A DNA stretch of 64,000 bases, from positions 1 through 64,000 of the IMG/VR virus record IMGVR_UViG_3300029906_000003. The stretch is one strand, 5' to 3'. Each line of letters opens with the position of its first letter. The first letter of the stretch is position 1. Under the pieces are notes generated by a model that worked only from the letters and a program-made list of their open reading frames with translations, was not told the DNA's origin and made no database searches. Of the stretch, positions 20,036-39,294 are shown piece by piece. Made by a program: the position numbers and the translations under genes. The DNA comes from a virus. Taxonomy: Duplodnaviria; Heunggongvirae; Uroviricota; Caudoviricetes.

Positions 20036-20175
20036 AAGTTATTTCTCCTTTTGTTTTCTTATGTATAAATTATATCATAAAAAAGGAAAATAATCAATAA
20101 GCAATTTTATTTTTTAAACAATAGAAAAAAGAAAAAGAGACGCGGCAGCTCGTGCCTTACGTCTCTAGTTGCGTT

Positions 20176-20249
20176 GGAGCAGGATACCAGACTCGAACTG
20201 GCGCTGTATGATTGGAAGTCATAAATGCTACCACTACACCAATCCTGCA
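20176..20249 (-). tRNA. tRNA-Gly(UCC)
   Basis: cloverleaf folded by hand: acceptor GCAGGAT/ATCCTGC, anticodon stem TATGA/TCATA with loop CTTCCAA, T-loop TTCGAGT, U73, CCA encoded. Confidence 0.8.
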
Positions 20250-20254
20250 TATGT

Positions 20255-20328
20255 GGAGCCGCCACGAAGAATCGAACTCCGATACGCTCATTACAAGTGA
20301 GCAGTTCTACCGTTAAACTATGGCGGCA
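20255..20328 (-). tRNA. tRNA-Thr(UGU)
   Basis: acceptor GCCGCCA/TGGCGGC, anticodon stem GCTCA/TGAGC, loop CTTGTAA, T-loop TTCGATT. Confidence 0.85.
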
Positions 20329-20406
20329 TAATTACTAGAGACTAAAAATAAATGGAGGTTTTTTCAGAACCGATTTATAAAATAAAATTTGCTGTGAGTC
20401 TCTAAT

Positions 20407-20482
20407 GGAGCACATGGGAATCGAACCCATCTGACTTCTTCCTTGCAAGGGAAGCGAACACCCCATGCATTCCCGTACCCCA
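20407..20482 (-). tRNA. tRNA-Ala(UGC)
   Basis: acceptor GGGGTAC/GTGCTCC with G3:U70, anticodon stem CTTCC/GGAAG, loop CTTGCAA, T-arm ATGGG-TTCGATT-CCCAT; CCA not encoded. Confidence 0.7.
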
Positions 20483-20485
20483 TAT

Positions 20486-20561
20486 GGTTGCAACTCGGAG
20501 ACTTGAACTCCAATCCTTCGATTATCAGTCGAAAGTTTTAACCGGTTAAACTAAGTCGCAT
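20486..20561 (-). tRNA. tRNA-Ile(GAU)
   Basis: anticodon stem TTCGA/TCGAA, loop CTGATAA, T-loop TTCAAGT, CCA. Confidence 0.85.
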
Positions 20562-20636
20562 TATAAAAACTAGAGAGCTTCAAAAATAAATCCAAGTCTT
20601 GTTATTTGATACCTCTTGCTGTAACTCTCTAATGGT

Positions 20637-20725
20637 GGTGCGCCCTGGGGGAATCGAACCCTCACAATGCGATAGCGTCTGAAGATTAGAAGTCAACTGT
20701 TTTATCCAATTAAACTAAGAGCGCT
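20637..20725 (-). tRNA. tRNA-like, type II architecture, anticodon arm does not pair (probable pseudo-tRNA)
   Basis: good acceptor GCGCTCT/AGGGCGC, D-arm GTTT..AAAC and T-arm, but no pairing around ..GTTGACTTCTAATCTTCAG.. Confidence 0.3.
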
Positions 20726-20958
20726 TAAATATAATTGATGAAAGAATTATTTTTGAACAGTCTTACTAATTCTGCGCTATCTACATCATTCAATCGGTTA
20801 GCAAGTTTATTAAGAATCTTAACAGTGCTCTCATTGTAATCTCCTTTATTAAGGATCTTAATAATTTCATCTTTTGCCGCAGAACTGTCCATAATGTACA
20901 AATTTAAAAGATTATCACTTGTAATTTTAGGATAAATAGTCATTCTATTCCCCTTCAA
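20725..20958 (-). CDS. hypothetical small protein
   Basis: ORF track. Confidence 0.4.
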   Translation of the reverse strand: MKGNRMTIYPKITSDNLLNLYIMDSSAAKDEIIKILNKGDYNESTVKILNKLANRLNDVDSAELVRLFKNNSFINYI

Positions 20959-21028
20959 GGCATAATATATTATTTTTTATTTTTCCAGAATAATAATTAA
21001 AAATTGCTGTATATGCCTTCATGGCTGA

Positions 21029-21664
21029 TTATAAATATCTCCATTCATATCCGTAAGCAGTTTTTCTTTTCCCTCTACAAGCAGCAGATATATGACTAAT
21101 GACTCCATTTATTTTTGAAAAAGTAATTCCTTCTTCGATTAAATATCTTGCAGCATCACTCATAGATAAGAATGTTCTTACGGGTAAATTATTTTTATAA
21201 GCAATAACTTTTTTAGAGCAGATTTCTTTCTGAAAAGAGTTATCTTTTATTCTAGGAACTCCTCTCGATTCTAAAATATTATATACTGAATCTACACAAA
21301 TATTCAAAGTATCTGCTACTTTTACACAGTTGTGTAAATTTTGATAAGTTTCAACAACTAAATCATAATCAATATATTTCTTTCCATCTCCTCCTAAAGT
21401 TGCATTATACCCGTTATGGTAAGAACCATAATATTGAATCCAATATCGCTCTCTCTCTTCTGAATTATCTGTTTCTTCAATCAGCTCAATATGGAAATGT
21501 TCTGGTCCATATTTATTCATTGCTGCATATAAAGGGCGCTTTTCGCATTTTTCTCTTTTATAGTCACAAAGATGCTCTTTAAATCTTGATTGAATACTCT
21601 ATTCTGTTTTTCCAATATAGATTTTCTAATTAATGTCGTTTGTAATTTTGTAGATGTATGCCAT
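21029..21664 (-). CDS. GIY-YIG homing endonuclease (I-TevI-like) with 2 in-frame TAG codons inside the GIY-YIG motif
   Basis: Track ORF 21029-21520 extended upstream gives MAYIYKITNDIN[TAG]KIYIGKTE[TAG]SIQSRFKEH. The ERERYWIQYYGS..NGYNATLGG region and the C-terminal ..AYGYEWRYL match I-TevI family. RBS AAGGAG. Confidence 0.75.
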
Positions 21665-21756
21665 ACTTAAATAGCTCCTTTCTATATGGTTCATTCTGTT
21701 AAAATAATAAAATATTTTTATCCAGGCGCACCACGTGGAGGAAAACCTTTGCGCCC

Positions 21757-21852
21757 TCGAGGCGGTGGGATTCGAACCCACATACTAGGGGTCAGAGCCC
21801 TAGGCTGTGAATGTTTTAGAGACATTTGCTGAACCAATTTAGCTACGCCTCG
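21757..21852 (-). tRNA. suppressor tRNA, anticodon CUA (reads UAG), long variable arm (type II), A73
   Basis: acceptor CGAGGCG/CGCCTCG, D-stem GCT/AGC, anticodon stem AATGT/ACATT with loop CTCTAAA (CUA at 34-36), variable arm hairpin CTAGGG-CTCTGAC-CCCTAG, T-arm GTGGG-TTCGAAT-CCCAC; CCA not encoded. Confidence 0.7.
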
Positions 21853-21991
21853 TTACGATACGAGAGGCAATTTACTTATGGTAATACAATCTTTTTTCCT
21901 TGTACTTTATCGCATATATTTGCTGTCTGTCTCTCTTTGTATTTATATTATATCATAATTTTAATTTTATGTCAATAGAATTTTTTAAATA

Positions 21992-22183
21992 TTAAAGAAC
22001 TCCGCGCCGATGAAGTTCATGGCAAATGATATTATACCTTGAAACAATAGCAGAGAAATTAATATACTTGGCTTTTACAGACTCTTCAATTACATTCCAC
22101 AGTTTATCTCGTTCTCTCATTAAACGTTCAGTCGAAAGCTCATTAGGAAAATGAGTCTCAACATTGTACATCTTTTCGTTCAT
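21992..22183 (-). CDS. hypothetical small protein
   Basis: ORF track. Confidence 0.4.
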   Translation of the reverse strand: MNEKMYNVETHFPNELSTERLMRERDKLWNVIEESVKAKYINFSAIVSRYNIICHELHRRGVL

Positions 22184-22216
22184 GCGGCCTCAGTCCTTTC
22201 TTTACAGTATTGAGTA

Positions 22217-22292
22217 TGGTCGGAACGGCGAGACTCGGACTCGCTGCATCCAGATCCCAAATCTGGCATTCTACCAGTTGAATTACGTCCCG
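22217..22292 (-). tRNA. tRNA-Pro(UGG)
   Basis: anticodon stem CCAGA/TCTGG, loop TTTGGGA, D-arm ATTC..GAAT, CCA. Confidence 0.85.
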
Positions 22293-22312
22293 TTTTAGAC
22301 GGCTCCTGCCGC

Positions 22313-22484
22313 ATTATCTTCGCTGTAGGAACCAAATATCTCTCTTCCTTTGTCTCTTGATATTATCTATTTCTTTAGATAAACTACTTATTTTATTTTC
22401 TATTCTTACAATATCTGAAATGATAATTGGAGGATTATTTATAGATTCTAATTCTACTATTTTATCATCTAATTGTTCATACAT
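22313..22484 (-). CDS. hypothetical small coiled-coil protein (56 aa)
   Basis: manual ORF MYEQLDDKIVELESINNPP... Confidence 0.3.
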
Positions 22485-22511
22485 AGTATCACCTGCTCTT
22501 TATCATTCATA

Positions 22512-22587
22512 TGGGCAGAAGGAAGAGAATTGAACTCTTACTATCAAATCCACAATTTGAGGTGCTAACCATTACACTACCAACTGC
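22512..22587 (-). tRNA. tRNA-His(GUG)
   Basis: extra G-1 opposite C73, anticodon stem TCAAA/TTTGA, loop TTGTGGA; two U-U mismatches in the acceptor stem. Confidence 0.7.
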
Positions 22588-22603
22588 ATATTATATTTTT
22601 TAG

Positions 22604-22679
22604 TGGTGCGCTCGGAGAGATTTGAACTCTCGACCAACGGATTAAAGGTCCGCGACTCTTCCAGCTGAGTTACGAGCGC
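22604..22679 (-). tRNA. tRNA-Lys(UUU)
   Basis: acceptor GCGCTCG/CGAGCGC, anticodon loop CCTTTAA (unusual C33), T-loop TTCAAAT, CCA. Confidence 0.75.
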
Positions 22680-22694
22680 ATAGAAAAGAGAAGA

Positions 22695-23231
22695 TTAGCT
22701 CTTCTCTGTTTGATTTAGAATAATTTTAAATATATCTTCCGCTGTTTTAATAGTCTTACTAGCTTTTTCTACTTCCTGAGCGGTTTTTGCTTTCATATCT
22801 TTAAGAAATTCTGCTTGAACCGCGCATTGTTTATCTCTTTCCTCTTGTTCTTTTTTGTCCTTGAAATATTTATCTACTTTGTCGTAGTCTATTGCGGTCT
22901 TTAATTTAATATATTCGTAATTTGGTTCTGAAGAACTCAGATATACACTTATATTAGTATATTGTTGTTTTTTCTTCTTTTCAAATTCTTCATATGACTT
23001 ATCTGAAATATAAATTAAATATTTATGGCCAGGAGTTCTTTTTAAAAGAAAATTTTTAGGATAAAGCTCATGGAATAGAATATATTGGTTTGCTGTTAAT
23101 TCTATACAAGATGCCGAACTAGGAGGACTCATAAATTCATGTATAGCGGATATTTTTGCTAATTTATCAACAATAAAAGCAGTAGCAAAAAACGTACAGA
23201 GAAAAATTAGAACAACTAACATTTTAACCAT
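22695..23231 (-). CDS. hypothetical membrane-anchored protein
   Basis: ORF track; N-terminal TM helix. Confidence 0.55.
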   Translation of the reverse strand: MVKMLVVLIFLCTFFATAFIVDKLAKISAIHEFMSPPSSASCIELTANQYILFHELYPKNFLLKRTPGHKYLIYISDKSYEEFEKKKKQQYTNISVYLSSSEPNYEYIKLKTAIDYDKVDKYFKDKKEQEERDKQCAVQAEFLKDMKAKTAQEVEKASKTIKTAEDIFKIILNQTEKS

Positions 23232-23248
23232 ATATTACCTTCCTTTTG

Positions 23249-23322
23249 TGGAGCACACGGTTGGAGTCGAACCAACTTTCACAGATTTGCAGCCTGCTAT
23301 CTAGCCGTCTGATTCCGTGCGC
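23249..23322 (-). tRNA. tRNA-Cys(GCA)
   Basis: anticodon stem GCAGG/TCTGT (two G-U pairs), loop CTGCAAA, T-loop TTCGACT, U73, CCA. Confidence 0.7.
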
Positions 23323-23617
23323 ATATAAATACTCCCCAATATTTTGTAGTCCGTATCAGACTATTATCCGAATTGTTCTCCTTGGGGAAGGCAAACTCCT
23401 TGAGATTTGCTCAAGTATAGCCAACTATTAATATAGTTGTCAAATAATAAAGCAGGTGTGCTATTACGCTAAAAAATATTATTTTTACCTATTGGCACTT
23501 CATTATTTTATAGGACATTATTTCATGTAGCCTATTATATAATTTTTTGCACCTAATAGAATAATATTTACTCATTATAGGATAGCTGCTTCTAAGCTTA
23601 CCTTCCTGCTTTGCATA

Positions 23618-23709
23618 TGGCGCCGGTTAGAAGATTCGAACTTCTGGAGGGGAATTTCCCCTCAAGGGTTTAGCAAACCCCTGCACTCGACCAACTATGC
23701 GAAACCGGC
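23618..23709 (-). tRNA. tRNA-Ser(GCU)
   Basis: type II: acceptor GCCGGTT/AACCGGC, anticodon loop TTGCTAA, long variable arm GAGGGG-AAATT-CCCCTC, G73, CCA. Confidence 0.85.
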
Positions 23710-23723
23710 AAAAAAAAACAAGA

Positions 23724-23799
23724 CAGTATGTATATACTAATGCGTTACCATTACGCTATATTCGCTATTAATGGCGCGAACATTCGGATTTGAACCGAA
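23724..23799 (-). other. permuted or fragmented tRNA-like element: a 3' half (T-arm, acceptor 3' strand, CCA) lies 6 nt upstream of a matching 5' half (acceptor, D-arm, hairpin)
   Basis: sense order TTCGG-TTCAAAT-CCGAA TGTTCGC G CCA ttaata GCGAATA TA GCGT-AATGGTA-ACGC ...; the two acceptor strands are complementary. Confidence 0.3.
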
Positions 23800-23869
23800 A
23801 ATACTTAGTTCCCTAAGAATTTTGCTGTTACTGTCTTTATTTATATAAAACTATCAAGATACCTTTTTA

Positions 23870-23938
23870 AAACTGGGACTCGAACCCAGACCCTTTTGAT
23901 TATCAGTCAAATGCTCTAACCAGTTGAGCTATTAAGCG
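23870..23938 (-). tRNA. tRNA-Ile(GAU)-like pseudogene (acceptor strands do not pair)
   Basis: D-arm GCTC-AACTGGTTA-GAGC, anticodon arm TTTGA-CTGATAA-TCAAA and T-arm CTGGG-TTCGAGT-CCCAG are good, but the 3' acceptor TTTTAAA does not pair with the 5' side. Confidence 0.3.
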
Positions 23939-24056
23939 CGAGGTGCGCTCAAAAGTGTTTGCTGTAAGTATCTTTAATTGCGGATGGGATTAACCAATAT
24001 ATTTCTGCAAAATTAGTTAAAACAGACTCACCACGTGAAGGTTTTTGCATGAGTCC

Positions 24057-24142
24057 CGGGCGGGGTGGGATTCGAACCCACGGAGGCGTGAACCTCAACG
24101 GTTTTCAAGACCGTCTCAATAATCCAGCTCTGACACCCGCCC
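24057..24142 (-). tRNA. tRNA-Ser(UGA)
   Basis: acceptor GGGCGGG/CCCGCCC, anticodon stem ACGGT/ACCGT, loop CTTGAAA, long variable arm, G73. Confidence 0.85.
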
Positions 24143-24150
24143 AAAATAAT

Positions 24151-24297
24151 GGGGAAATTCACCCCTTGGCCGCATTCATCTGCCGCTTAGCCTTACGAAC
24201 AAGATTCTTATTACTTACCTGCTTTTTACCATTACTTACTGTATCACGATAGTTCAAACGGTTAATACGATTCTGAAAATGTTCAACAGTCTTATTC
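24151..24297 (-). CDS. small basic (Lys/Arg-rich) protein (48 aa)
   Basis: manual ORF MNKTVEHFQNRINRLNYRD...; RBS GGAGGG. Confidence 0.3.
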
Positions 24298-24305
24298 ATA
24301 TTATT

Positions 24306-24524
24306 TTAGCCCTCCAACATTGTCCAAAGAGTTACTTTATAACCAAATTGTGAATCTTCAATTAAAGGAACAATAGCAACAATATCTTTGCTTGCCAAAT
24401 TATTTGCCTTATAAAAAGTGATAAAACTTTCAATAACATTTTTCATAGCCGCCTTTTTGCTTGGATGCGGCCCATCCTCAAAAGTTCTAATTCTCATTTT
24501 CTGTAATAATGTTTTTCCCACCAC
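24306..24524 (-). CDS. hypothetical small protein
   Basis: ORF track. Confidence 0.45.
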   Translation of the reverse strand: MVGKTLLQKMRIRTFEDGPHPSKKAAMKNVIESFITFYKANNLASKDIVAIVPLIEDSQFGYKVTLWTMLEG

Positions 24525-24607
24525 TTCAAATAATCTTTAAGGGTTCCCTGGTTCTTCAAATGCGGCGATGGCGTTCCAAAAATTTTTAATTGCATTCCGA
24601 CGACACC

Positions 24608-24970
24608 TTACTTCCGATACTGAGGGCCGCGCTTATAATAAAAATTAACGAAGTCCTCAAGACTATTAATTTCAGGATGCTTCCACATAAAATATGGAGT
24701 AATTCCAGTTGCTTCATACTCTCTCATTTCGTGATAGTATGAAGCAATAACATCTTTCAAAGGCCAATAACAAATATAATCCGCAATATCCCAAGATTCA
24801 AAATTCTTTCGATAATATTTTTTTGCTCTTGGATTAGATGATTCATCCATTTGCCGCAGGAGGTCTTGCTTCATCTTTCTACGATACTTTCGATTAGCAA
24901 TTTGCTTAATCTGTTTCTTTTTCCTATTGCCATCTTTTGAAACAGGAAATTTCTTATAGCTACGACTCAT
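24608..24970 (-). CDS. hypothetical basic protein
   Basis: ORF track. Confidence 0.5.
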   Translation of the reverse strand: MSRSYKKFPVSKDGNRKKKQIKQIANRKYRRKMKQDLLRQMDESSNPRAKKYYRKNFESWDIADYICYWPLKDVIASYYHEMREYEATGITPYFMWKHPEINSLEDFVNFYYKRGPQYRK

Positions 24971-25090
24971 TAAGCAATCCTCCTACTCTTTTAACAAGAC
25001 AGTTTTTAATAATCACTTATATGATTCAAATTCATATGTTTATATTATAAAAACATTTGCTGTAACTGTCTTTCTTTTGTTTATATGCTT

Positions 25091-25119
25091 ATTATATCAT
25101 TTTTATAAAAATCTGTCAA
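25091..25119 (-). promoter_or_regulatory. sigma-A consensus promoter (TTGACA-17-TGaTATAAT), leftward
   Basis: revcomp reads ttgttgTTGACAgatttttataaaaaTGaTATAATaag; it is followed in the transcript by the conserved leader AAGACAGTTACAGCAAA. Confidence 0.6.
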
Positions 25120-25199
25120 CAACAGATTTCTTAATCTAAAATAAGTAGCAGTTTTACATCATGCTCAGGATGCGTCTTGAGGTAGCGAAATCTCTTGAC

Positions 25200-25286
25200 T
25201 GGTGGGCAGGGAACGGATTTGAACCTTTGAAGGACTAAGCCACCAGAACTACAATCTGGCCTCGTTGACCACTTGAGTACCTACCC
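25200..25286 (-). tRNA. tRNA-Tyr(GUA)
   Basis: type II; anticodon stem CCAGA/TCTGG, loop TTGTAGT, 3-bp D-stem, A73; T-stem has one mismatch and an extra C. Confidence 0.65.
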
Positions 25287-25294
25287 ATAATTAA

Positions 25295-25372
25295 TGGTAC
25301 TGTTGGAGAGACTTGAACTCTCAATTGTACAAGGTTTGAACTTGTTGCGTATGCCAATTCCGCCACAACAGC
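25295..25372 (-). tRNA. tRNA-Leu(CAA), atypically short variable arm
   Basis: anticodon stem ACAAG/CTTGT, loop TTCAAAC, T-arm GAGAG-TTCAAGT-CTCTC, A73, CCA. Confidence 0.6.
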
Positions 25373-25439
25373 ATATAAATTAGCCTTTTAAAGTCATGCT
25401 TAGGACTCATTGAAATGATGTAGTTAATTAGACTGCTAA

Positions 25440-25529
25440 TGGTGCGGGAAGAGAGATTTGAACTCTCATTCCTACTTTGTTCGGAGTCAACTTCTAAGGC
25501 TGATGTGGCTGCCGTTTCACCATTCCCGC
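25440..25529 (-). tRNA. tRNA-Leu(UAG)
   Basis: type II; anticodon stem TCAGC/GTTGA, loop CTTAGAA, T-arm GAGAG-TTCAAAT-CTCTC, A73. Confidence 0.8.
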
Positions 25530-25584
25530 ATATGAGAGCCTTTTATAGTCGTACTCAGGACTAATTTTTGGAGGTTCATCATGG

Positions 25585-25899
25585 TGGTGCTGCTGACGAG
25601 ATTTGAACTCGTAAGCTATTTCTAGCAACGGATTTTCTTACTACTTCATGTCGCCATGACCGCATTTGCGTTGTAGTCTGGAGTATACCTTGACCATATT
25701 ACTATTGTAACTTAGGTCCGCGCCGTCTACTCTCTCCACATTCCATTTTTCAATGTTAGCTCGGCGATAGTCTTAACCGATATTAATTAAGATTTCCCCC
25801 GAATTTGACGCGATTCACTCTAGTCATTTCTTCCTAGGTGCTCAAGCCTTCTTTTGTTAAGGCCAAGTCCGTAGTGTTTGCCAATTTCACCACAGCAGC
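25585..25899 (-). tRNA. tRNA-Leu(UAA) interrupted by a 229-nt putative group I intron in the anticodon loop. Exons are 25866-25899 and 25585-25636; the intron is about 25637-25865.
   Basis: 5' exon: GCTGCTG TG GTG-AAATTGGCAAA-CAC T ACGGA CTT. 3' exon: AAAA TCCGT T-GCTA-GAAA-TAGC-TT ACGAG-TTCAAAT-CTCGT CAGCAGC A CCA. Both acceptor strands and both anticodon-stem strands are complementary. The intron follows U34 and ends in G, as in cyanobacterial tRNA-Leu(UAA) introns. Confidence 0.55.
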
Positions 25900-26613
25900 A
25901 TATAGAAATTGAATACCTCACTTTTAACCACTCGCTAGACCTTCGTCTTACTCTCATCTATTCTCTGTTATATTCAGTCACGAGGCAATGAAGTCTGAGC
26001 TTCGGGTAGCGACCCCTAACTTCTTCACTGGCGGACCTAAATCCGCATTCTCTCTAGCCGCTTGATTACGACTAACTTTCACTCGTCATTCAGACCAATG
26101 TGTATAATACATATTCATCCAACGTCCAGATTTTGAGCTACTTGTACTGAACTCTCCCCTTATAGACAGATTTCTCTGCTTCAACTGGACATTATTTGCT
26201 TACTAGGATTACCTAGAGTTTGCTTAGTTTCCTAGGCTAAACCTTATCTAGGCTTATTCTCGTACTTGCGAGCGTCTATTGCGCAAACGGGGAGTCAAGT
26301 TCATACCTTTAACTAGGGAATAAATTACTAGCACCATAAACTCGCGGAAGTGGCCTTTGGCCGCTCATACTCTCACATCACTGAAAGAGTCATTTGGCTG
26401 TTACAAGGGTATCCTCTTGTCCAGTCCTACCCGCATATTTAAAGCTCATGTCTAGGCCAGATGACCTTCTGTCTTCACCTAGATAGCTAGTGGCTAAAAG
26501 TAAGGTATTCAATTCTCAAAGTTCTATTTATTTATCAAGACAGTATTTAAATCAGACTATCAATCTAACATTATCCAAGCTAAAATTTGCTGTAACTGTC
26601 TTTTGATGTATTT

Positions 26614-26642
26614 ATTATAACAAATTTTTATTTATTTGTCAA
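26614..26642 (-). promoter_or_regulatory. sigma-A consensus promoter (TTGACA-17-TATAAT), leftward, with the conserved leader motif
   Basis: revcomp reads TTGACAaataaataaaaatttgtTATAAT, then ..AGACAGTTACAGCAAATTTT. Confidence 0.6.
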
Positions 26643-26658
26643 TAAGGAATTTTATCTA

Positions 26659-27211
26659 TTAAACTTTGTTAAAGATAAAAACAACTTCCTTAGTGACCTC
26701 TTCCTCGTCAACAGTGTCAGTCAGATTGAGGACAATAGCAACACTAGACCAAGTCTCAGGCTCCTTAAAATAGACAGAACCTTCAAGAGAATAATCAGAA
26801 ATGTTTACGCCGTCTTCATCATGCGGATTCAGATTCACCTCAAGCAGATTATCGTCGCCAGTGTTCACAGGAGTCTCAGGAACATAACTGCCATCAAAAT
26901 AAGCGCGAACCATCAAATTCAAATGACCGTCATCAGGTTCCGCACTATTGATTTCAACGACCTTATCCAAATGATTCACCATTGTAAAATCTACCTGAAT
27001 ATAGCCGTCATGAGTAACGCCATACCCTACAGAATTTACAACGAATGCCTTGTCATCAAAAATCAAACTCTTAGTCTGCGGCTGGGAAGTAATGCCTTCA
27101 TCCTTATCTGCGGCAGGAGTCTGAGCTCAAGCCGTCATCATACTAGTTGCGGCCATGACACCAATAGCAGAAAGAAATGCCCGACGAGAAATCTTATTAA
27201 AATTCTTCATT
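26659..27211 (-). CDS. secreted (Tat-signal) hypothetical protein with an in-frame TGA between the signal peptide and the mature domain
   Basis: MKNFNKISRRAFLSAIGVMAATSMMTA[TGA]AQTPAADKDEG.. runs in frame into track ORF 26659-27066 (which starts at TTG); the twin-arginine motif SRRAFL is present. Confidence 0.35.
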
Positions 27212-27262
27212 AATTTTACCTCACTTTATGTTTTTGTTTTTTAATTTATTTATATTTTTTAC

Positions 27263-27338
27263 TGGAAGCGGCCATGGGGATTGAACCCATATCTCGAACT
27301 TGAGAGGCTCGTATCTTTGCCGATTGGACGAGGCCGCC
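27263..27338 (-). tRNA. tRNA-like, possible Glu(CUC); D-arm poorly formed
   Basis: acceptor GGCGGCC/GGCCGCT, T-arm ATGGG-TTCAATC-CCCAT, CCA; best anticodon stem CGAGC/GTTCG with loop CTCTCAA. Confidence 0.35.
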
Positions 27339-27493
27339 ATAAAAACAAGACGGAGTATAAAATGGAGCTATTTAAAGTAGCAATTTTTATTAGAATATTT
27401 GCTGTATCCGTCTTTAAGCTAATCCTTTTATATGGAGGACTAAAACCATACATCGTTATAGAAAGGAATTAAATATAATGGAACTTACTCCGG

Positions 27494-27569
27494 TGGTTGC
27501 GATGGAAGGATTTAAACCTTCGAATGGAGGAGTCAAAGTCCTCTGCCTTCATCACTTGGCTACACCGCA
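27494..27569 (-). tRNA. tRNA-Gln(UUG)
   Basis: U1:A72, anticodon stem GAGGA/TCCTC, loop CTTTGAC, T-arm GAAGG-TTTAAAT-CCTTC, CCA. Confidence 0.85.
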
Positions 27570-27608
27570 TTATAACTTAGCCTTTTTACATGGAAGGCTA
27601 AAACCGCA

Positions 27609-27684
27609 TGGGTGCGGATACGAGAATCGAACTCGTCCTATACTGCTTATGAGACAGTTCAGTACTCCAGCACTGTCATCCGCG
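27609..27684 (-). tRNA. tRNA-Met(CAU); the C1-A72 mismatch suggests an initiator type
   Basis: anticodon stem ACTGT/GCAGT, loop CTCATAA, T-loop TTCGATT, CCA. Confidence 0.75.
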
Positions 27685-27823
27685 ATATAAAAGCAAGCTT
27701 ATTTTACTACTGGCCTTGCTAACCAGGTGTCTGTTCAGTTCCTCCGAGTTCGTCATTCTTATATTATAGTCCCTTTGAACTCGCCAACTACGTTTTCCCT
27801 CGAAAGGCACAACTAAGGACTGA

Positions 27824-27916
27824 TGGAAGCGTAGAGGAGGCTCGAACTCCCAAACAGTATCACTACTGAGCTCCACTGTGAAAGAGTGGGGACTCTACCA
27901 ATTTGTCTACTACGCC
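27824..27916 (-). tRNA. tRNA-Glu(UUC)-like with an unusual 21-nt variable arm
   Basis: acceptor GGCGTAG/CTACGCT, D-stem GAC/GTC, anticodon stem CCACT/AGTGG, loop CTTTCAC, extra arm CAGT-AGTGAT-ACTG, T-arm GGGAG-TTCGAGC-CTCCT, CCA. Confidence 0.45.
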
Positions 27917-28036
27917 ATATTAAAGAGAAAAGATTTAAAAGTATTACTTTTCTCTTGTTTGTATATCTATTATACCATTTTTTATCTATTTTGTCAATAA
28001 GTAATTTCTTAAATCAAATTTTTCTTTTCTTTCTCT

Positions 28037-28177
28037 CTATGCGTTTTTATACGCTTCTAGCTCTTTCAAAAGTTTACATCCATTACAAGACTTCCTACGT
28101 TCGCAAAACCAACAGTTATCGGTATCCAGAGTAAACCATCGCGGAGGCTCTGGCCGCATCTTTCGTTTCTTTTTCAT
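28037..28177 (-). CDS. small Cys-rich (CxxC..CxxC) protein
   Basis: manual ORF MKKKRKMRPEPPRWFTLDTDNCWFCERRKSCNGCKLLKELEAYKNA, ends at a TAG (possible read-through). Confidence 0.3.
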   Translation of the reverse strand: MKKKRKMRPEPPRWFTLDTDNCWFCERRKSCNGCKLLKELEAYKNA

Positions 28178-28215
28178 AGATGTACTCCTTTTTCTATTGT
28201 TATTTTATTGCTGAC

Positions 28216-28291
28216 TGGTGCGGAATGAGGGATTTGAACCCACTACTTTTTGGATGTAAGCCAAATACTCTACCAACTGAGTTAATCCCGC
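28216..28291 (-). tRNA. tRNA-Val(UAC)
   Basis: acceptor GCGGGAT/ATTCCGC, anticodon stem TTTGG/CCAAA, loop CTTACAT, CCA. Confidence 0.85.
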
Positions 28292-28297
28292 ATTTTT

Positions 28298-28373
28298 TGG
28301 TGAGGTATCTTCGAGTTGAACGAAGATTGATAGATTTTCAGTCTACTGCCTTGACCACCTAGGCTAATACCCC
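28298..28373 (-). tRNA. tRNA-Phe(GAA)
   Basis: anticodon stem GTAGA/TCTAT, loop CTGAAAA, D-arm GCCT..AGGC, CCA. Confidence 0.85.
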
Positions 28374-28374
28374 A

Positions 28375-28450
28375 TGGCATAGTCGGAGAGAATCGAACTC
28401 CCAACATATAGTTTTGGAGACTATTGTTCTACCAGTTGAACTACGACTAC
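28375..28450 (-). tRNA. tRNA-Trp(CCA)
   Basis: anticodon stem ATAGT/ACTAT, loop CTCCAAA, T-loop TTCGATT, CCA. Confidence 0.8.
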
Positions 28451-28455
28451 ATAAT

Positions 28456-28530
28456 TGGCGGGTACACAGAGAATCGAACTCTGATTTTCAACTGGACAGG
28501 TTGAACTTCTAGCCATTGAACTATGCACCC
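28456..28530 (-). tRNA. tRNA-Asp(GUC)
   Basis: anticodon stem TCAAC/GTTGA, loop CTGTCCA, T-arm CAGAG-TTCGATT-CTCTG, CCA. Confidence 0.8.
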
Positions 28531-28534
28531 ATAA

Positions 28535-28611
28535 TGGAGGGGTATTTCAGATTTGAACTGAAGACACGAAGCTTAACAGGCTTCTGCTCTAACCTACTGA
28601 GCTAATACCCC
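28535..28611 (-). tRNA. tRNA-Asn(GUU)
   Basis: acceptor GGGGTAT/ATACCCC, anticodon stem GAAGC/GCTTC, loop CTGTTAA, CCA. Confidence 0.85.
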
Positions 28612-28757
28612 ATATATGGCGGGACAAGATGCGCCCTGCCGCAAGACAGTTTTATATTTCTTGCCTATCAAATATATATAAAAGAAATTTGCTGTATCTG
28701 TCTTATGTATTTATTATACCATTTTTTTATTTTTTTATCAATAAGGATTTTTTTTTA

Positions 28758-29585
28758 TTAAGCTATATAATCCTTTAAAACAGAAGCCCTGATTGGATTC
28801 CTCATCTTCTTGAGGGCGCACTTTTCTACTTGCCGCACTCGTTCTTTAGAAAGACCAATCTTTCTTGCAATTTCATCAAGAGTAAGAGGTTTAATATAAC
28901 CAATACCGAACCGCATCTTTAATATATCAGATTCTTTATCAGGAAGAGTACTCAATACTTTATTTATCTTCTAACACATTTCTTTTTCTTCATACTTCTC
29001 TTGAATTTCTGATTCTTTATCTTCAATAAAATCACCAAAAGAGTCTTCATTATCTTCCGAGATGGGAGAATCAAGAGAAATCATATCATTCATATAACTC
29101 TTAATTTTTTTCAGCTCTTCAAAAGTAATGCCCATTTCCGCGGCAACCTCTTCATCAGAGAACGAGTTATATTTTTGCATCATTCCCGTCGTAATCTTTT
29201 TATACTTATTAATTTTCTCAACAATATGACTAGGAACTCTGATATTTTCAGATTGCTGACTTAATGCTCGCGAAATTGCAGACTTAATCCAATAATAAGC
29301 ATATGTACTAAAACGATAACTACTGGACAAATCATATTTGTCAATAGCTGTCATTAAGCCAATATTACCTTCTTGGACCAAATCCAAAAAAGATAAACTT
29401 GCATTTTGCGAATAATATTTCTTAGCAATAAAAACAACAAGTCTAAGATTAGCCTCAATCAATTCTTCTCGTGCAGTCTTATTTCCTGACTGTGCTTTTT
29501 CAAGAAGAATCCTTTCGGTTTCCGTATCTAATATATTATCAGATAACTCATTTAAATAGATAGAACTAATATCAATATCTGCCAT
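28758..29585 (-). CDS. sigma-70 family sigma factor (regions 2-4, group 3/SigF-G-like) with 1 in-frame TAG between regions 3 and 4
   Basis: Track ORFs 28971-29585 (DLVQEGNIGLMTAIDKYD, region 2) and 28758-28955 (LTLDEIARKIGLSKERVRQVEKCALKKMR, region 4.2 HTH) share one frame and are separated by a single TAG: ..KEMC[TAG]KINKVLSTLPDKESD.. Confidence 0.75.
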
Positions 29586-29646
29586 TTATCTACATTCTCC
29601 TTTTTGTGTCAATAATTATAACATAAAAAAGAAAAAATGTCAATGG

Positions 29647-29865
29647 TTACTTTTTTGTTTTAGTATCCGCACGGTAACACAGCATAGAAACTGTCCAACA
29701 CTCATTTCCACATTCAGGACAACTAGCTGTATAATACGGAGGATTCAAGTCGTCCGCGGGGTGAAGGCACGTTTCTGTCGCCCTTTCAGCTTCAAAGACG
29801 CACCCACACAAATTACAATGGAAACGAATATTATTATAGTGATAACCATGTTCAAGGACTCTCAT
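29647..29865 (-). CDS. zinc-ribbon protein
   Basis: two CxxC pairs (CNLCGC, CPECGNEC). Confidence 0.45.
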   Translation of the reverse strand: MRVLEHGYHYNNIRFHCNLCGCVFEAERATETCLHPADDLNPPYYTASCPECGNECWTVSMLCYRADTKTKK

Positions 29866-29869
29866 TATT

Positions 29870-30463
29870 TTATTCCTCCACTATTACTTGAAAGACTTCC
29901 TTATCTACCCACAATCCAGAATTTAATGCCTCTTCATGCGAATCAAAGTAAATGTCAATAATCTTTTTTCCTAGTCCGCCGCCGCGGTCTTCAACAATGT
30001 ACTCATGTCCATCAATAACAATCTTAGTTCCGAAAGGAATACCATTCATTGCCGCAGTCCTGCCCGCAGTAGCTTTCGTTCCAGATGCAGTAATGCCATC
30101 CGTCTTGCCGCAACACTTTACGCAAGGGCAATAGGCAGAAATCTTATAAACGCCAAGTGAAACCAATTCAGGTTCTTTCTCTTTTTTAGCTTCCGCCTCT
30201 TTAATAATTACAGCATCTTTTTCTTTTTGCTCTAAAGCTAACTGCTCCATAGTAAATTCATACGGAGACTGATATGCGACAAGCTCACTATCGCATTCTT
30301 GAGACGCAATGGCATTTTTTACCGAAATGCATCCTACTAACGCAATAAGTGCGATTCCCGCGATAAATTCCTTTCCCAATCTCATTTCTCTTTCTCCTTT
30401 TCTATTGTTTTGATGCAAAGAATGAGAACTGGGAGGGGTAATATTAATTAAAAAATGAGCCAA
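29870..30463 (-). CDS. 3D-domain (MltA/YocH-like) lytic transglycosylase lipoprotein. The likely true start is MRLGKEF.. near 30388.
   Basis: lipobox LIALVGC; 3D domain YKISAYCPCVKCCGKTDGITASG...IDIYFDSHEEA. Confidence 0.65.
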   Translation of the reverse strand: MAHFLINITPPSSHSLHQNNRKGEREMRLGKEFIAGIALIALVGCISVKNAIASQECDSELVAYQSPYEFTMEQLALEQKEKDAVIIKEAEAKKEKEPELVSLGVYKISAYCPCVKCCGKTDGITASGTKATAGRTAAMNGIPFGTKIVIDGHEYIVEDRGGGLGKKIIDIYFDSHEEALNSGLWVDKEVFQVIVEE

Positions 30464-30659
30464 ATAAATTATCTAAAATAGTCCAGACATCTATAAGGCT
30501 CATTTATTGGTGCCACCCCCGTGAATCGAACACGGAACCTGTCAATTATAAGTTGACTGCTCTGACCAGTTGAGCTAGAGCGGCATATAAGGAGGCTTGA
30601 AGCACCTTGTCGCTTTCACATGGCGGCCTCTTTCTTTATATATTATACCATTTTTATTC

Positions 30660-30812
30660 TTCTTCGTCAATAAAAGATTTTTTAAGCTGAATTACTTCAT
30701 AATCAATGACAGTATAACGCTCCTGAAGAAAATACAAATCAGCAAAATTGTTAATAACACAAATATGCTTAATAGAATAGTCGTCAATATACCAAACCTG
30801 AATATGAAGCAT
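30660..30812 (-). CDS. hypothetical small protein (50 aa)
   Basis: manual ORF; RBS AAGGAGAG. Confidence 0.25.
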
Positions 30813-30829
30813 CTTTAACTCTCCTTCTT

Positions 30830-31114
30830 TTATAGATTAAACTTATCAATCAATCTACGAACATTTTCTAGTTCTTCTTCTGTTGGCATAGAATCAATAG
30901 AAGAAAGAATTGGTGCGGGCAGCTCACTATCTCCACGCTGAGACTCGTGTGATACGTTCTCCTTTGCCGCGGTCATAGTAAGTTTAATTTGAATTTCTTC
31001 ACCATCTTCAATGCCGCAAATTCTTAACTCTTTACCATTAATGAATGAGTTAGGAAAAATCTAAAGAATAAGGTTAGAAATTTTTTCCTTAGTTGCGCTT
31101 CCTTTTGCCGCCAT
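30830..31114 (-). CDS. hypothetical protein with 1 in-frame TAG; possibly an AbrB/SpoVT-like swapped-hairpin regulator
   Basis: manual: MAAKGSATKEKISNLIL[TAG]IFPNSFINGKELRICGIEDGEEIQIKL.. Confidence 0.35.
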
Positions 31115-31182
31115 TATTTTCTCCTTTATATTTTTTATCTTTATTGTATAATTATTATATCATTTTTCTTATTTTTTGTCAA

Positions 31183-31998
31183 TTATGTTTTTTCTTTTTT
31201 ATCTTTTATCTTTTTTGCAACGTGACTCAATTCTTCAATCCTCTTGCACATTTTACATGAGCCATCTATAAGACAACGTTTGCGGCAACTCGTTCTAAAC
31301 CAAGCAAACTCTGGCCCAATGTATCTATTATCAATATCAGAATCTAGTCCCAAGATAATTTCTTTCAGCGGCCCCCACCATTTTTTTTCTTTTGCATATA
31401 TCTTGTATAGAGTTCCATCTGAATTGTTAAAAGATATAAGTTCGCAAACATCAACCCAATTCTCATAAGCAGATATATCCTCTGGCCGCACATAGAATTG
31501 CGTCAATTTATCTCCATACGAGTATGATGACTGACAGATATTAGGGTATATCCGTACAGAGGCGCCGGCCGCATGAACCTTCTTTGCAACATTTTGAATA
31601 TCAAATCCTAATTGGTTTCCAATATATATATCAGTTACACCAAGAGAAAGAAAACCATCTATGGTATCGTAGTCCAATGGGATGTTGACAAAAAAGAATG
31701 GAATCTTATCTTCTTTAAAGAAATCAAGTATATTTTTTATTTTTTCATTGTTAAGATAATAAGCAAATCTTATTTTTATTTTCTCTGGATATTTTTTGAC
31801 TAGAGACTTAATTGATTTATATTCTTGGCCACGCAAAGACAATTTATCTATTACATCATTAGAGCAACTTAGAATAAAAGAGGTGGAATCATCGTCCCAC
31901 CCCTGAATTTGATTCTCTATTGCTTTGATGCGGCCAAAGTCTATGTCAATAATTAGTTCATCCAATCCGGGGACGCTTTTCCGCATACAAAACTTCAT
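31183..31998 (-). CDS. hypothetical protein with a C-terminal Cys cluster
   Basis: ORF track. Confidence 0.55.
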   Translation of the reverse strand: MKFCMRKSVPGLDELIIDIDFGRIKAIENQIQGWDDDSTSFILSCSNDVIDKLSLRGQEYKSIKSLVKKYPEKIKIRFAYYLNNEKIKNILDFFKEDKIPFFFVNIPLDYDTIDGFLSLGVTDIYIGNQLGFDIQNVAKKVHAAGASVRIYPNICQSSYSYGDKLTQFYVRPEDISAYENWVDVCELISFNNSDGTLYKIYAKEKKWWGPLKEIILGLDSDIDNRYIGPEFAWFRTSCRKRCLIDGSCKMCKRIEELSHVAKKIKDKKEKT

Positions 31999-32001
31999 TT
32001 A

Positions 32002-32217
32002 TTACTCCCATCTATCCCATTTTGATTCTCGCAATTCTTTCTTACGGGCATCGCGCATCTTTTCTTCTTTGAGATTTTTACGAGCAGGTTTTCCACCCGG
32101 AATTGCATCATACTTAGAGCACTTCTGACAATAATGCCAGAAAGTTCCTTCTCGCCCTAAAGCACAATGCCCTTCATACTCATAATACTGACACGCAATA
32201 TTTCTTTCTTTTGCCAT
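32002..32217 (-). CDS. small Cys/His-rich protein
   Basis: ORF track. Confidence 0.4.
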   Translation of the reverse strand: MAKERNIACQYYEYEGHCALGREGTFWHYCQKCSKYDAIPGGKPARKNLKEEKMRDARKKELRESKWDRWE

Positions 32218-32247
32218 TGGGATAAATCCTTTCTTTATTATATTATA

Positions 32248-32661
32248 TTACTTTACACTAGAGAACATTGCGTTCAAGAAATTCTTGATAATGTCATCAT
32301 CACTCTTGCCCTTGGGCGCTTTAGTCATATTACCAAAACTCTTAAAAGTATTGTCCAAGTCACGAAGAGTTTCGTCAATAATTTCATCCAAATCCTTCTT
32401 GATAAGTTCAGCAAGGTCCCCTTCGAAGCTAGAATCAACACAAATGACCAAGTAATTCTTCAGTGCCTTAACAAGTTCAACTCTTGCCGCATCGGCCTTA
32501 GCCTTCTGCTCATTCTGGCTATTATCTGCCTTAGCCTTCTCAATAATCCTATCAAGAAATTTGTGATACTGTTCAGCAACCTTCTTCTGATGCTCTGCAT
32601 CAACTCCAAGGCACTCCTTCATATACTCATAATCAACGGACATAATCTTCTTGTTTTCCAT
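32248..32661 (-). CDS. hypothetical protein
   Basis: ORF track. Confidence 0.5.
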   Translation of the reverse strand: MENKKIMSVDYEYMKECLGVDAEHQKKVAEQYHKFLDRIIEKAKADNSQNEQKAKADAARVELVKALKNYLVICVDSSFEGDLAELIKKDLDEIIDETLRDLDNTFKSFGNMTKAPKGKSDDDIIKNFLNAMFSSVK

Positions 32662-32791
32662 TAATAATTTCTCCTTAAAAAGTTAATCAAAACAAACAAA
32701 TTTTCTTTATATTATTATAAGTTAAAAATGCGGCCAGGTCAATATAGCATTTTTGGGACTAATCCAATGTTGCATAGGACGGCTGGCCGCG

Positions 32792-33517: not shown

Positions 33518-33634
33518 TTTAATCTCCTTTTTCTCTTTCTATTGTTTTATCTTTTATAAATGTATTATATCATATATCATATTATTTATCAATAAATAAT
33601 TTTTGCTTCTGAAACAATAGAAGAAAATATATAT

Positions 33635-33662
33635 TGACATATCTATTATAATATGGTATAAT
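33635..33662 (+). promoter_or_regulatory. sigma-A consensus promoter TTGACA-16/17-TATAAT driving the rightward block
   Basis: atatTTGACAtatctattataatatggTATAATtttt. Confidence 0.55.
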
Positions 33663-33696
33663 TTTTTCAGAAAATCAATAGAAAGGAAAAAGATAA

Positions 33697-39215: not shown

Positions 39216-39294
39216 TCAAAAATTTCTTATTGATTTTTTATTAAAAAGATGATATAATATATACATAAGAAACAAAAGAAAAGGAGAATAGACT

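What the first reader, a model, noticed from the sequence alone, without database searches (positions are those of the whole stretch)
28758..29585. Phage sigma factor whose region 4 is reachable only by UAG read-through
Regions 2-3 and the DNA-binding region 4.2 HTH are in one frame separated by a single TAG. Without suppression the product lacks the -35-binding domain. This links the timing of sigma-factor activity (late transcription) to suppressor tRNA availability.
Basis: partly seen in the sequence, partly recalled or inferred. Interest (0 to 1): 0.6.

Follow-up and report, generated by a model that had tools for sequence, protein, structure and literature searches.

The report
Phage sigma gene with recoded TAG
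A gut-phage sigma-factor gene does contain one in-frame TAG before its last domain, but this phage reads TAG as an amino acid throughout its genome and the TAG is a one-letter change private to this strain, so it is an ordinary case of a known alternative genetic code and not a built-in timing switch.

Summary
On the minus strand, 29585->28758 is a 275-codon SigA/RpoD-like sigma gene. It has a single in-frame TAG at codon 205 (28971-28973), after region 3 and before region 4.

The window comes from a roughly 140-kb phage that uses TAG as a sense codon. One 2608-codon tail-fibre-like gene carries 11 TAGs. TAG lines up with Gln in orthologues and in paralogous repeats. A tRNA with anticodon CUA lies 7 kb downstream, behind its own consensus promoter.

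In 24 related loci the same codon is CAG or CAA. Twelve of these contigs differ from the window's sigma gene by only 8-19 of 828 nt. None has any TAG in its sigma gene. The TAG is therefore a recent, private C->T change that is synonymous under code 15.

About 8% of Gln-type codons in the window are TAG, so one TAG among nine is unremarkable. The sigma gene and the suppressor tRNA both sit behind perfect TTGACA-17-TGnTATAAT promoters, so no staged delay is built in. Dependence on suppression is real but generic (Borges et al. model).

Low interest. This is a new member of a known kind.

The parts
28758..29585 (-). Sigma-70-family (SigA/RpoD-like) gene: 275 sense codons including one TAG, then a TAA stop
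   Evidence: sequence, translation; Pfam r2, r3, r4; PHROG 351, E 1.8e-78; RpoD_Cterm 262 bits, below its cutoff; best solved relative is SigA 7ckq_F, 213 bits
28974..29585 (-). Codons 1-204: regions 1.2-like, 2 and 3 (including the GDFIED region 3.2 motif). This is the product if UAG terminates (23.5 kDa)
   Evidence: called as a 204-aa protein on an identical public contig
28971..28973 (-). In-frame TAG, codon 205. Relatives have CAG or CAA (Gln) here
   Evidence: It aligns with the start of the region 4.1 helix of SigA
28761..28970 (-). Codons 206-275: region 4 (4.1 and the 4.2 helix-turn-helix), intact and in frame
   Evidence: Sigma70_r4 at 210-263, E 7.5e-18; synonymous changes outnumber non-synonymous ones against relatives: 6:2 to 18:9
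29615..29643 (-). Consensus promoter TTGACA-17-TATAAT with TG extended -10, directly upstream of the sigma gene. AGGAG Shine-Dalgarno at 29597-29601
   Evidence: identical 29-mer upstream of sigma in L001, L003, L024, L025 and L026
28713..28741 (-). Near-consensus promoter (TTGATA-17-TGGTATAAT) immediately after the sigma stop codon, heading the tRNA array
20175..28611 (-). tRNA array on the same strand, downstream of sigma. It holds 22 of the 23 ARAGORN calls plus 2 Rfam-only hits, and a ROOL RNA
21757..21852 (-). Predicted UAG-decoding tRNA: anticodon loop CUCUAAA (anticodon CUA), 96 nt, with a 25-nt variable-region hairpin. ARAGORN mislabels it Phe(aaa)
   Evidence: Rfam tRNA model, 56.7 bits; anticodon arm AAUGU/ACAUU; only CUA candidate in the window
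21947..21975 (-). Perfect consensus extended -10 promoter about 95 nt upstream of the tRNA(CUA)
   Evidence: The same promoter and leader precede a homing-endonuclease gene and then a different 74-nt tRNA(CUA) in the closest relative, L038

Best explanation
The gene encodes a SigA/RpoD-like sigma factor (regions 1.2-4.2, no region 1.1) of a roughly 140-kb gut phage that uses genetic code 15, in which TAG is a sense codon, most likely Gln. Codon 205 was CAG in the immediate ancestor. A single C->T transition made it TAG in this strain only. A phage tRNA(CUA) is transcribed from its own strong consensus promoter in the same minus-strand tRNA block. In infected cells it decodes the UAG, and the normal 275-residue sigma is made. 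Some 204-residue product lacking region 4 is expected whenever host RF1 wins the competition, but that is a by-product. The change is neutral or nearly so, being synonymous under the phage's code, and is not an evolved regulatory element. What is shown: the gene anatomy, genome-wide in-frame TAGs, TAG/Gln correspondence, the presence of a tRNA(CUA), the promoters, and the absence of the TAG in relatives. What is inferred: that the tRNA is expressed, charged and efficient, and which amino acid it inserts.
For: Genome-wide recoding. Treating TAG as sense fuses fragments into a 2608-codon tail-fibre-like gene with 11 TAGs, a GIY-YIG gene with 11, RecJ-like with 2, and others. TAG corresponds to Gln. 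Sigma codon 205 is CAG or CAA in 24 loci. Phosphoesterase codon 104 is TAG in the window and CAA in four relatives. Four TAGs in the tail-fibre repeats match Q in paralogous repeats, for example EGEIDTL[TAG] against EGEIDTLQ and VVSYT[TAG]G against VVSYTQG. Suppressor. One tRNA with anticodon CUA is in the window, at the slot where relatives carry 74-75-nt tRNA(CUA) genes. Private allele. Twelve contigs from 12 sequencing runs differ by 8-19 of 828 nt and read ATG TGT CAG AAG ATA, against the window's ATG TGT TAG AAG ATA. The TAG allele is seen only in the window and in one 100%-identical contig. Region 4 is intact, with mostly synonymous differences from relatives. One TAG among nine Gln-type codons is expected by chance with p = 0.3-0.5. 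Residue 205 is variable in more distant homologues (K, A, R, D, E). The phenomenon itself is published: Borges et al., bioRxiv 10.1101/2021.08.26.457843; PMC10607447; PMC9523058, abstract only.
Against: There is no direct evidence of decoding, such as peptides or expression data. The window's only tRNA(CUA) is atypical: 96 nt, a long variable arm, C1-G72, A73, and no encoded CCA. It is unlike the window's tRNA-Gln(UUG) and unlike the relatives' 74-75-nt suppressors, so both its charging identity and its efficiency are unknown. Only 64 kb of about 140 kb is visible. Sigma genes are TAG-free in every relative examined, which could mean TAG is selected against there, so the allele may be mildly deleterious and not neutral. 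The TAG falls exactly at a domain boundary, so a truncated product could fold and act.
Confidence: 0.8

Rival explanations
1. Evolved timer. The TAG makes full-length sigma depend on accumulation of the suppressor tRNA, which delays sigma-dependent (late) transcription. Before that, only a region-4-less form is made.
For: The TAG lies precisely between r3 and r4. A suppressor tRNA gene is present. TAG use is higher in the tail-fibre gene (11 of 80 Gln-type codons) than in most replication genes, as in the published model. Nearly all consensus promoters here carry a TG extended -10. From my own knowledge (Kumar et al. 1993, E. coli sigma70), this promoter type can work without region 4.
Against: The TAG is not conserved: 24 of 24 related loci have CAG or CAA and no TAG anywhere in sigma, including relatives at 99% identity. 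Sigma and the tRNA(CUA) share the same promoter type, so no ordering is built in. The sigma is SigA-like, and no late-promoter motif was found. The chance expectation is 0.3-0.5.
Confidence: 0.07
2. Loss or attenuation of function. The TAG is a recent nonsense-like lesion that is poorly suppressed, so this strain mostly makes a truncated sigma. That product would be either dispensable or dominant-negative, and the allele transient and mildly deleterious.
For: The allele is private to one strain. Sigma is otherwise TAG-free in all relatives examined. The window's suppressor tRNA is structurally unusual.
Against: Essential-looking genes in the same genome need UAG decoding many times, for example 11 TAGs in the tail fibre. 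Suppression must therefore be efficient enough for a single TAG. Region 4 shows no decay.
Confidence: 0.07
3. Sequencing or assembly error at one base. The true codon would be CAG.
For: A single-base difference from 12 near-identical contigs.
Against: The same base appears in a separately built Logan assembly of run SRR4096758 that is identical over 10,926 nt, and in a JGI/IMG record, although these may share reads. A second lineage-specific Gln->TAG change in the phosphoesterase gene shows the same process at work.
Confidence: 0.04
4. Split sigma. Regions 2-3 and region 4 are made as two polypeptides that assemble on core RNA polymerase.
For: A TTG at codon 211 opens a 65-aa ORF covering region 4.
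Against: No GGAG or GAGG lies upstream of that TTG (the upstream sequence is AGAAGATAAATAAAGTA), while 36 of 69 window genes have one, including AGGAG before the sigma ATG. The gene is continuous with a sense codon in all 24 relatives.
Confidence: 0.01

Closest known systems
Genetic-code-15 (TAG->Gln) gut phages with their own tRNA(CUA): Borges et al. 2021/22 (bioRxiv 10.1101/2021.08.26.457843); crAss-like phages with proteomic proof (PMC9523058); 'Phassvirus' phAss-1, 136 kb with 28-36 tRNAs (PMC10607447)
   Same: Many in-frame TAGs in conserved genes. TAG aligns with Gln. A phage tRNA(CUA) sits inside a large tRNA array. TAG is denser in a structural gene than in most replication genes. Recoding patterns differ between close relatives, as reported for phAss-1 and its relatives.
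   Different: No close sequence relative exists in GenBank phages, IMG/VR or JGI metagenomes. The tRNA(CUA) in this strain is a 96-nt form with a long variable arm. The TAG discussed here sits in an early-looking regulatory gene and is strain-private.
Primary-type sigma factors (SigA/RpoD) and phage-encoded RpoD-like sigmas (PHROG 351)
   Same: Regions 2, 3 and 4 are present. The best solved match is SigA chain 7ckq_F (213 bits, residues 103-370 aligned). The GDFIED motif and the RERxRQxE helix of region 4.2 are conserved.
   Different: Only 275 aa, with no region 1.1. It scores below the curated RpoD cutoffs (262 against 354; 278 against 555). There are substitutions in the -10-reading helix (YYWIKSAISRA against TWWIRQAITRA) and in region 4.2 (SKERVRQ against TRERIRQ). 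Its promoter specificity is unknown.
Programmed stop-codon read-through giving C-terminally extended isoforms (Qbeta A1, retroviral Gag-Pol; my own knowledge)
   Same: One frame, one internal stop codon, and a longer product that requires decoding of the stop.
   Different: In those systems the stop is conserved and the codon is otherwise a terminator. Here the codon is a sense codon genome-wide, and the position is not conserved.
Sigma70 lacking region 4 acting at extended -10 promoters (Kumar et al. 1993, J Mol Biol; my own knowledge), and split sigma genes (B. subtilis sigK interrupted by skin; SigO-RsoA)
   Same: A product ending at codon 204 would correspond to a region-4-less sigma. The phage's consensus promoters nearly all have the TG extended -10 motif.
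   Different: There is no evidence that a truncated or separate region-4 product is made or used. There is no ribosome-binding site for a second piece. Relatives encode one continuous protein.

Membership tests
Sigma-70 family, primary-like (SigA/RpoD-like) | Region 2 (core binding, -10 recognition) present | tested here: met
   Pfam Sigma70_r2 at residues 42-112, E 1.4e-17
Sigma-70 family, primary-like (SigA/RpoD-like) | Region 3 present | tested here: met
   Pfam Sigma70_r3 at residues 123-196, E 3.2e-17
Sigma-70 family, primary-like (SigA/RpoD-like) | Region 4 helix-turn-helix (-35 recognition) present in the same polypeptide | tested here: met
   Pfam Sigma70_r4 at residues 210-263, E 7.5e-18, but only when TAG at codon 205 is translated
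Sigma-70 family, primary-like (SigA/RpoD-like) | Reaches the curated score of an RpoD/SigA equivalog (a true housekeeping sigma) | tested here: not met
   TIGR02393 scores 262 bits against a cutoff of 354; NF004208 scores 278 against 555. There is no region 1.1. So it is RpoD-like but not an RpoD orthologue.
Sigma-70 family, primary-like (SigA/RpoD-like) | Binds core RNA polymerase and directs promoter-specific initiation | not testable with these tools
   Needs biochemistry
Genetic code 15 phage (TAG = Gln) | Multiple in-frame TAGs inside conserved protein-coding genes | tested here: met
   Tail-fibre-like gene 11 TAGs, GIY-YIG 11, RecJ-like 2, Sak4-like 2, phosphoesterase 1, sigma 1
Genetic code 15 phage (TAG = Gln) | TAG positions align with Gln in homologues | tested here: met
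   Sigma codon 205 (24 loci), phosphoesterase codon 104 (CAA read directly in 4 loci; Q in 5 by tblastn), and 4 tail-fibre repeat positions. The number of sites is small.
Genetic code 15 phage (TAG = Gln) | Phage-encoded tRNA with anticodon CUA | tested here: met
   Window 21757-21852(-), Rfam tRNA 56.7 bits, anticodon CUA. Relatives also carry one. Its amino-acid identity is unresolved, because the window's tRNA is not tRNA-Gln-like.
Genetic code 15 phage (TAG = Gln) | TAG not used as a terminator | not tested
   My ORF definition, and the depositors' calls, treat TAG as sense, so counts of end codons are circular
Genetic code 15 phage (TAG = Gln) | Peptides showing Gln at UAG | not testable with these tools
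   Needs proteomics, as in PMC9523058
Programmed regulatory read-through | Stop codon conserved at the site in related genomes | tested here: not met
   CAG or CAA in 24 of 24 related loci, at 51-99% identity
Programmed regulatory read-through | The codon is otherwise a terminator, so decoding at this site is exceptional | tested here: not met
   38 in-frame TAGs in window genes of at least 100 aa
Programmed regulatory read-through | Downstream read-through-stimulating signal | not tested
   Not examined. The base after the TAG is A, as for 18 of 36 in-frame TAGs.
Split (two-polypeptide) sigma | Independent start codon with a ribosome-binding site for the region 4 piece | tested here: not met
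   TTG at codon 211 has no GGAG or GAGG upstream
Split (two-polypeptide) sigma | The split is conserved in relatives | tested here: not met
   All relatives examined encode one continuous 275-278-aa protein

The most novel reading that the evidence does not exclude
In this one strain, the newly arisen TAG at the region 3.2/4.1 boundary produces two sigma isoforms. One is a 204-aa form without region 4 that still works at the phage's many TG extended -10 promoters. The other is the full-length form. The ratio between them is set by competition between the phage's unusual long-variable-arm tRNA(CUA) and host RF1. This would be a regulatory use of a recoded stop codon in a transcription factor, caught at its origin.
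Probability: 0.06. Interest if true: 0.6.

Novelty: new member of a known kind. Interest (0 to 1): 0.2.

Why it matters
As it stands this is mainly an annotation lesson. Under the standard code the gene is called as a 204-aa sigma with no DNA-binding region 4, and a public record already does this. Under code 15 it is an ordinary full-length SigA-like factor. The comparison with 24 relatives also shows how recoded TAGs spread: by single CAG->TAG transitions that appear in individual strains, even in early-looking genes, once a suppressor tRNA is present. If the truncated form turned out to be functional, this would be a rare natural example of a sigma isoform switch. The lack of conservation makes that unlikely.

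Tried and rejected
(1) Split sigma with separate translation of region 4. Rejected: no ribosome-binding site, and the gene is continuous in relatives.

(2) Conserved regulatory TAG. Rejected after reading the codon in 24 related loci.

(3) Reading the 96-nt tRNA as tRNA-Gln(CUG) with a 22-nt insertion before the anticodon arm. ARAGORN accepts either hairpin as the anticodon arm when the other is deleted. I rejected the CUG reading for three reasons. The Rfam model places the CUA hairpin at positions 27-43. The L027 homologue has a group-I-intron-like element that starts in that first hairpin, and from my own knowledge tRNA group I introns sit in the anticodon loop. The second hairpin is conserved with a compensatory change, as a variable arm would be.

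(4) Searches for close relatives in GenBank phages (megablast and tblastn), IMG/VR, JGI metagenomes and GTDB genomes returned only distant sigma homologues (<=42% identity), so host and taxon remain unassigned. One unannotated human-faecal contig (MT835556) matches a neighbouring gene at 70% aa identity. Strong AAGGAG Shine-Dalgarno sites suggest a Gram-positive-type host.

(5) Looking by eye for a distinct late-promoter motif upstream of the tail-fibre region found nothing convincing. Too little late-gene sequence lies in the window.

(6) MAFFT alignment of the suppressor tRNA with the window's Leu, Ser and Tyr tRNAs was uninformative.

(7) Pfam and NCBIfam scans of the sigma gene's small neighbours gave no function.

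Full report
**Observation**

The finding's coordinates match a minus-strand ORF exactly. Reading 29585->28758 gives 275 sense codons plus TAA, with one in-frame TAG at codon 205 (window 28971-28973). With that codon translated, Pfam finds Sigma70_r2 (42-112), r3 (123-196) and r4 (210-263), each at E about 1e-17. PHROGs gives 'RNA polymerase sigma factor' (phrog_351, E 1.8e-78).

NCBIfam's best models are RpoD and RpoD_Cterm, but below their cutoffs. The best solved relative is a 371-residue SigA chain (7ckq_F, 213 bits). In that alignment the TAG falls at the start of the region 4.1 helix, just after the GDFIED region 3.2 motif. Termination there would give a 204-aa, 23.5-kDa protein with no region 4, against 31.7 kDa for the full length.

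**The genome reads TAG as a sense codon**

If TAG is treated as sense, one + strand ORF grows to 2608 codons with 11 in-frame TAGs (8297-16123; hyaluronidase and tail-protein PHROG hits). Other genes with in-frame TAGs:
- GIY-YIG homing endonuclease (53287-54237): 11
- RecJ-like exonuclease: 2
- Sak4-like fragment: 2
- metallophosphoesterase: 1

 The large replication genes (topoisomerase II subunits, NAD ligase, DnaB, primase, RNA ligase) have none.

TAG corresponds to Gln at several kinds of site. In the tail-fibre repeats, TAG sits where paralogous repeats have Q, for example EGEIDTL[TAG] against EGEIDTLQ, AIDVSE[TAG]I against AIDVSEQI, and VVSYT[TAG]G against VVSYTQG. In the phosphoesterase, the window's TAG at codon 104 is CAA in four relatives. 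At the sigma codon, all relatives examined have CAG or CAA (below).

This is the published code-15 pattern of gut phages (Borges et al., bioRxiv 10.1101/2021.08.26.457843; PMC10607447; PMC9523058, abstract).

**The suppressor tRNA**

The sigma gene is followed on the same strand by a tRNA array (20175-28611). The tRNA at 21757-21852(-), which ARAGORN labels 'Phe(aaa)', has in the Rfam tRNA model (56.7 bits) a canonical anticodon arm AAUGU-CUCUAAA-ACAUU at positions 27-43. That gives anticodon CUA, plus a 25-nt hairpin in the variable region. It is the only CUA candidate in the window.

Relatives carry 74-75-nt tRNA(CUA) genes at the same slot, between tRNA-His/Pro and tRNA-Arg(UCU). The window's version is not tRNA-Gln-like: it has C1-G72, A73 and no encoded CCA, whereas the relatives' suppressors have a weak 1-72 pair, G73 and CCA. 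The amino acid it carries cannot be settled here. The comparative evidence says Gln. Residue 205 is variable in distant homologues (K, A, R, D, E), so another residue would probably be tolerated.

**Is the TAG a designed feature? Comparison with relatives**

The protein search found six full-length 275-aa clusters at 84-94% identity. The 90% cluster of P0002 has 80 members, and some listed members differ from the window's protein by only 1-2 residues. I read the DNA in 24 related loci:
- L001-L006 and L024-L026 (82-94% nt identity): CAG or CAA, with no TAG anywhere in sigma.
- L027, L029 and L030 (51-55% aa identity): no TAG.
- L038-L049, twelve contigs from twelve sequencing runs that differ from the window by only 8-19 of 828 nt: all read ATG TGT CAG AAG ATA, where the window has ATG TGT TAG AAG ATA.

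The TAG allele occurs only in the window and in one contig that is 100% identical over 10,926 nt (L031, SRR4096758). There the public gene call is the truncated 204-aa protein, which is also recorded on a 140,363-nt JGI/IMG contig.

The TAG is therefore a single, very recent C->T transition private to one strain. Under the phage's code it is synonymous. Region 4 downstream is intact, and its differences from relatives are mostly synonymous. A second Gln->TAG change specific to this lineage, in the phosphoesterase, shows the same drift.

Statistically, TAG is 7.7% of Gln-type codons in the window (4.1% without the two TAG-rich genes). One TAG among nine is expected with p = 0.3-0.5.

**Timing**

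The window has 17 matches to TTGACA-N17-TATAAT with at most one mismatch, against 1.08 expected. Nearly all carry a TG extended -10. Three matter here:
- 29643-29615, directly upstream of sigma, with the identical 29-mer in five relatives.
- 28741-28713, right after the sigma stop, heading the tRNA array.
- 21975-21947, about 95 nt upstream of the tRNA(CUA). The same promoter and leader precede the suppressor slot in L038.

Strong AGGAG Shine-Dalgarno sites are common, which suggests a Gram-positive-type host. Sigma and the suppressor therefore look like co-expressed early genes read by the host's primary holoenzyme. That they are early, and read by the host sigma and not the phage's own SigA-like sigma, is my inference. 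Nothing in this arrangement staggers them.

I found no separate late-promoter motif, and too little late-gene sequence lies in the window to look properly. In the relatives' 20-kb early region only 2 of 31 called genes contain a TAG. This fits the Borges model, in which early genes stay compatible with the standard code. It makes the window's sigma TAG an exception and not a rule.

**Rivals**

A split sigma is rejected. The only start codon after the TAG (TTG, codon 211) has no ribosome-binding site, and relatives are continuous. An evolved timer is not excluded physically, but non-conservation argues against it. A poorly suppressed, mildly deleterious allele is possible, although the 11 TAGs in the tail-fibre gene imply workable suppression. 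A base-call error is unlikely given a second assembly with the same base, but the reads may be shared.

**Comparison with what is known, and verdict**

This works like, and is a member of, the code-15 phages with their own tRNA(CUA). The gene is a member of the sigma-70 family. It is SigA-like, but it is not an RpoD orthologue by the curated cutoffs. It fails the defining test for programmed read-through, which is a conserved stop at the site.

No close relatives are in GenBank phages, IMG/VR, JGI metagenomes or GTDB genomes, so the phage lineage itself is poorly described. The finding as stated is an ordinary consequence of a known phenomenon.

Interest is 0.2, and the novelty class is a new member of a known kind. 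The most novel reading still open is a functional region-4-less isoform at extended -10 promoters, at about 6% probability.

Noticed in passing
window 21757-21852 (-); L027:17203-17516; L038:17930-18003; L003:18084-18158: The 'suppressor slot' holds three unrelated tRNA(CUA) genes in closely related phages. The window's is 96 nt with two tandem anticodon-like hairpins (loops CUCUAAA and CUCUGAC). Deleting either one gives a canonical 74-nt tRNA-Sup(CUA) or tRNA-Gln(CUG) in ARAGORN. The homologous gene in L027 is interrupted by a group-I-intron-like element (RF00028, 32 bits, E 1.6e-6, below the gathering score).
   Followed up: partly
window 25918-26506 (-): A full-length ROOL RNA (Rfam RF03087, 303 bits, E 9e-69) lies inside the tRNA array. 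Homologous sequence at about 70% identity is present in L001, L003, L025 and L029.
   Followed up: no
window, 17 sites, e.g. 33634-33662 (+), 31154-31182 (-), 27969-27997 (-), 41317-41345 (+): There are 17 near-perfect TTGACA-17-TATAAT promoters (1.08 expected), almost all with a TG extended -10 and AT-rich spacers. They are concentrated in the sigma/tRNA block and the replication module. A promoter cassette of about 70 nt is repeated at about 7850-7930 and 39220-39290.
   Followed up: partly
window 25295-28652 versus 28598-33890: The window is a recombinant. The sigma side is about 92% identical to the L003 lineage. The adjacent tRNA block is 92.7% identical to the L027 lineage, whose own sigma is only 55% identical in protein. 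The tRNA array is exchanged as a cassette.
   Followed up: partly
window 27824-27916 (-), 20636-20724 (-); L027:9078-9171: Several tRNAs that normally have short variable loops carry long inserts: Glu(UUC) 93 nt, Arg(UCU) 89 nt, and Ile(UAU) 94 nt in L027. For the Glu tRNA the insert folds as a hairpin placed, by my reading of the sequence, in the variable region. Long inserts recur across this phage group.
   Followed up: no
window 53287-54237 (+): The GIY-YIG homing endonuclease gene uses TAG for 11 of its 23 Gln-type codons, far above the genome average of about 4-8%. Some lie within QQQQ runs. A mobile gene is the most heavily recoded one in the window.
   Followed up: no
window 19088-19525 (-) and 17006-18535 (-): A YqeY/GatB-tail-like protein (Pfam PF09424, E 4e-18) and a 509-aa 'RNA-binding protein' (phrog_850; DUF2828/DUF7788 in relatives) sit just downstream of the tRNA array. 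The synteny is conserved in L001, L003, L027 and L029. They may be tRNA- or RNA-handling accessories.
   Followed up: no
window 30830-31114 (-): A 94-codon ORF behind a consensus promoter has a TAG at codon 18. By direct codon read the TAG is conserved in L001 and L003, and tblastn shows a stop at that position in five further related loci. So at least one early-region TAG is old, unlike the sigma TAG.
   Followed up: partly
window 33697-34881 (+): A divergent adenylosuccinate-synthase-like gene scores 78 bits to PurA and 35 bits to PurZ, both far below their cutoffs. It starts the + strand module from a perfect consensus promoter. Whether it is a PurZ-type enzyme (2-aminoadenine DNA) was not examined.
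   Followed up: no
window 23871-23933 (-): A tRNA-Ile(GAT)-like element matches only Rfam model positions 6-65 and has no pairing acceptor stem. It is a tRNA remnant or a non-canonical tRNA-like RNA.
   Followed up: no
window 55981-56352 (+), 56488-57348 (+), 57428-58075 (+): The Sak4-like gene is only a 123-aa fragment (PHROG profile positions 28-134 of 382). It is followed by a LAGLIDADG-type endonuclease gene. The gene may be interrupted by a mobile element or an intron.
   Followed up: no
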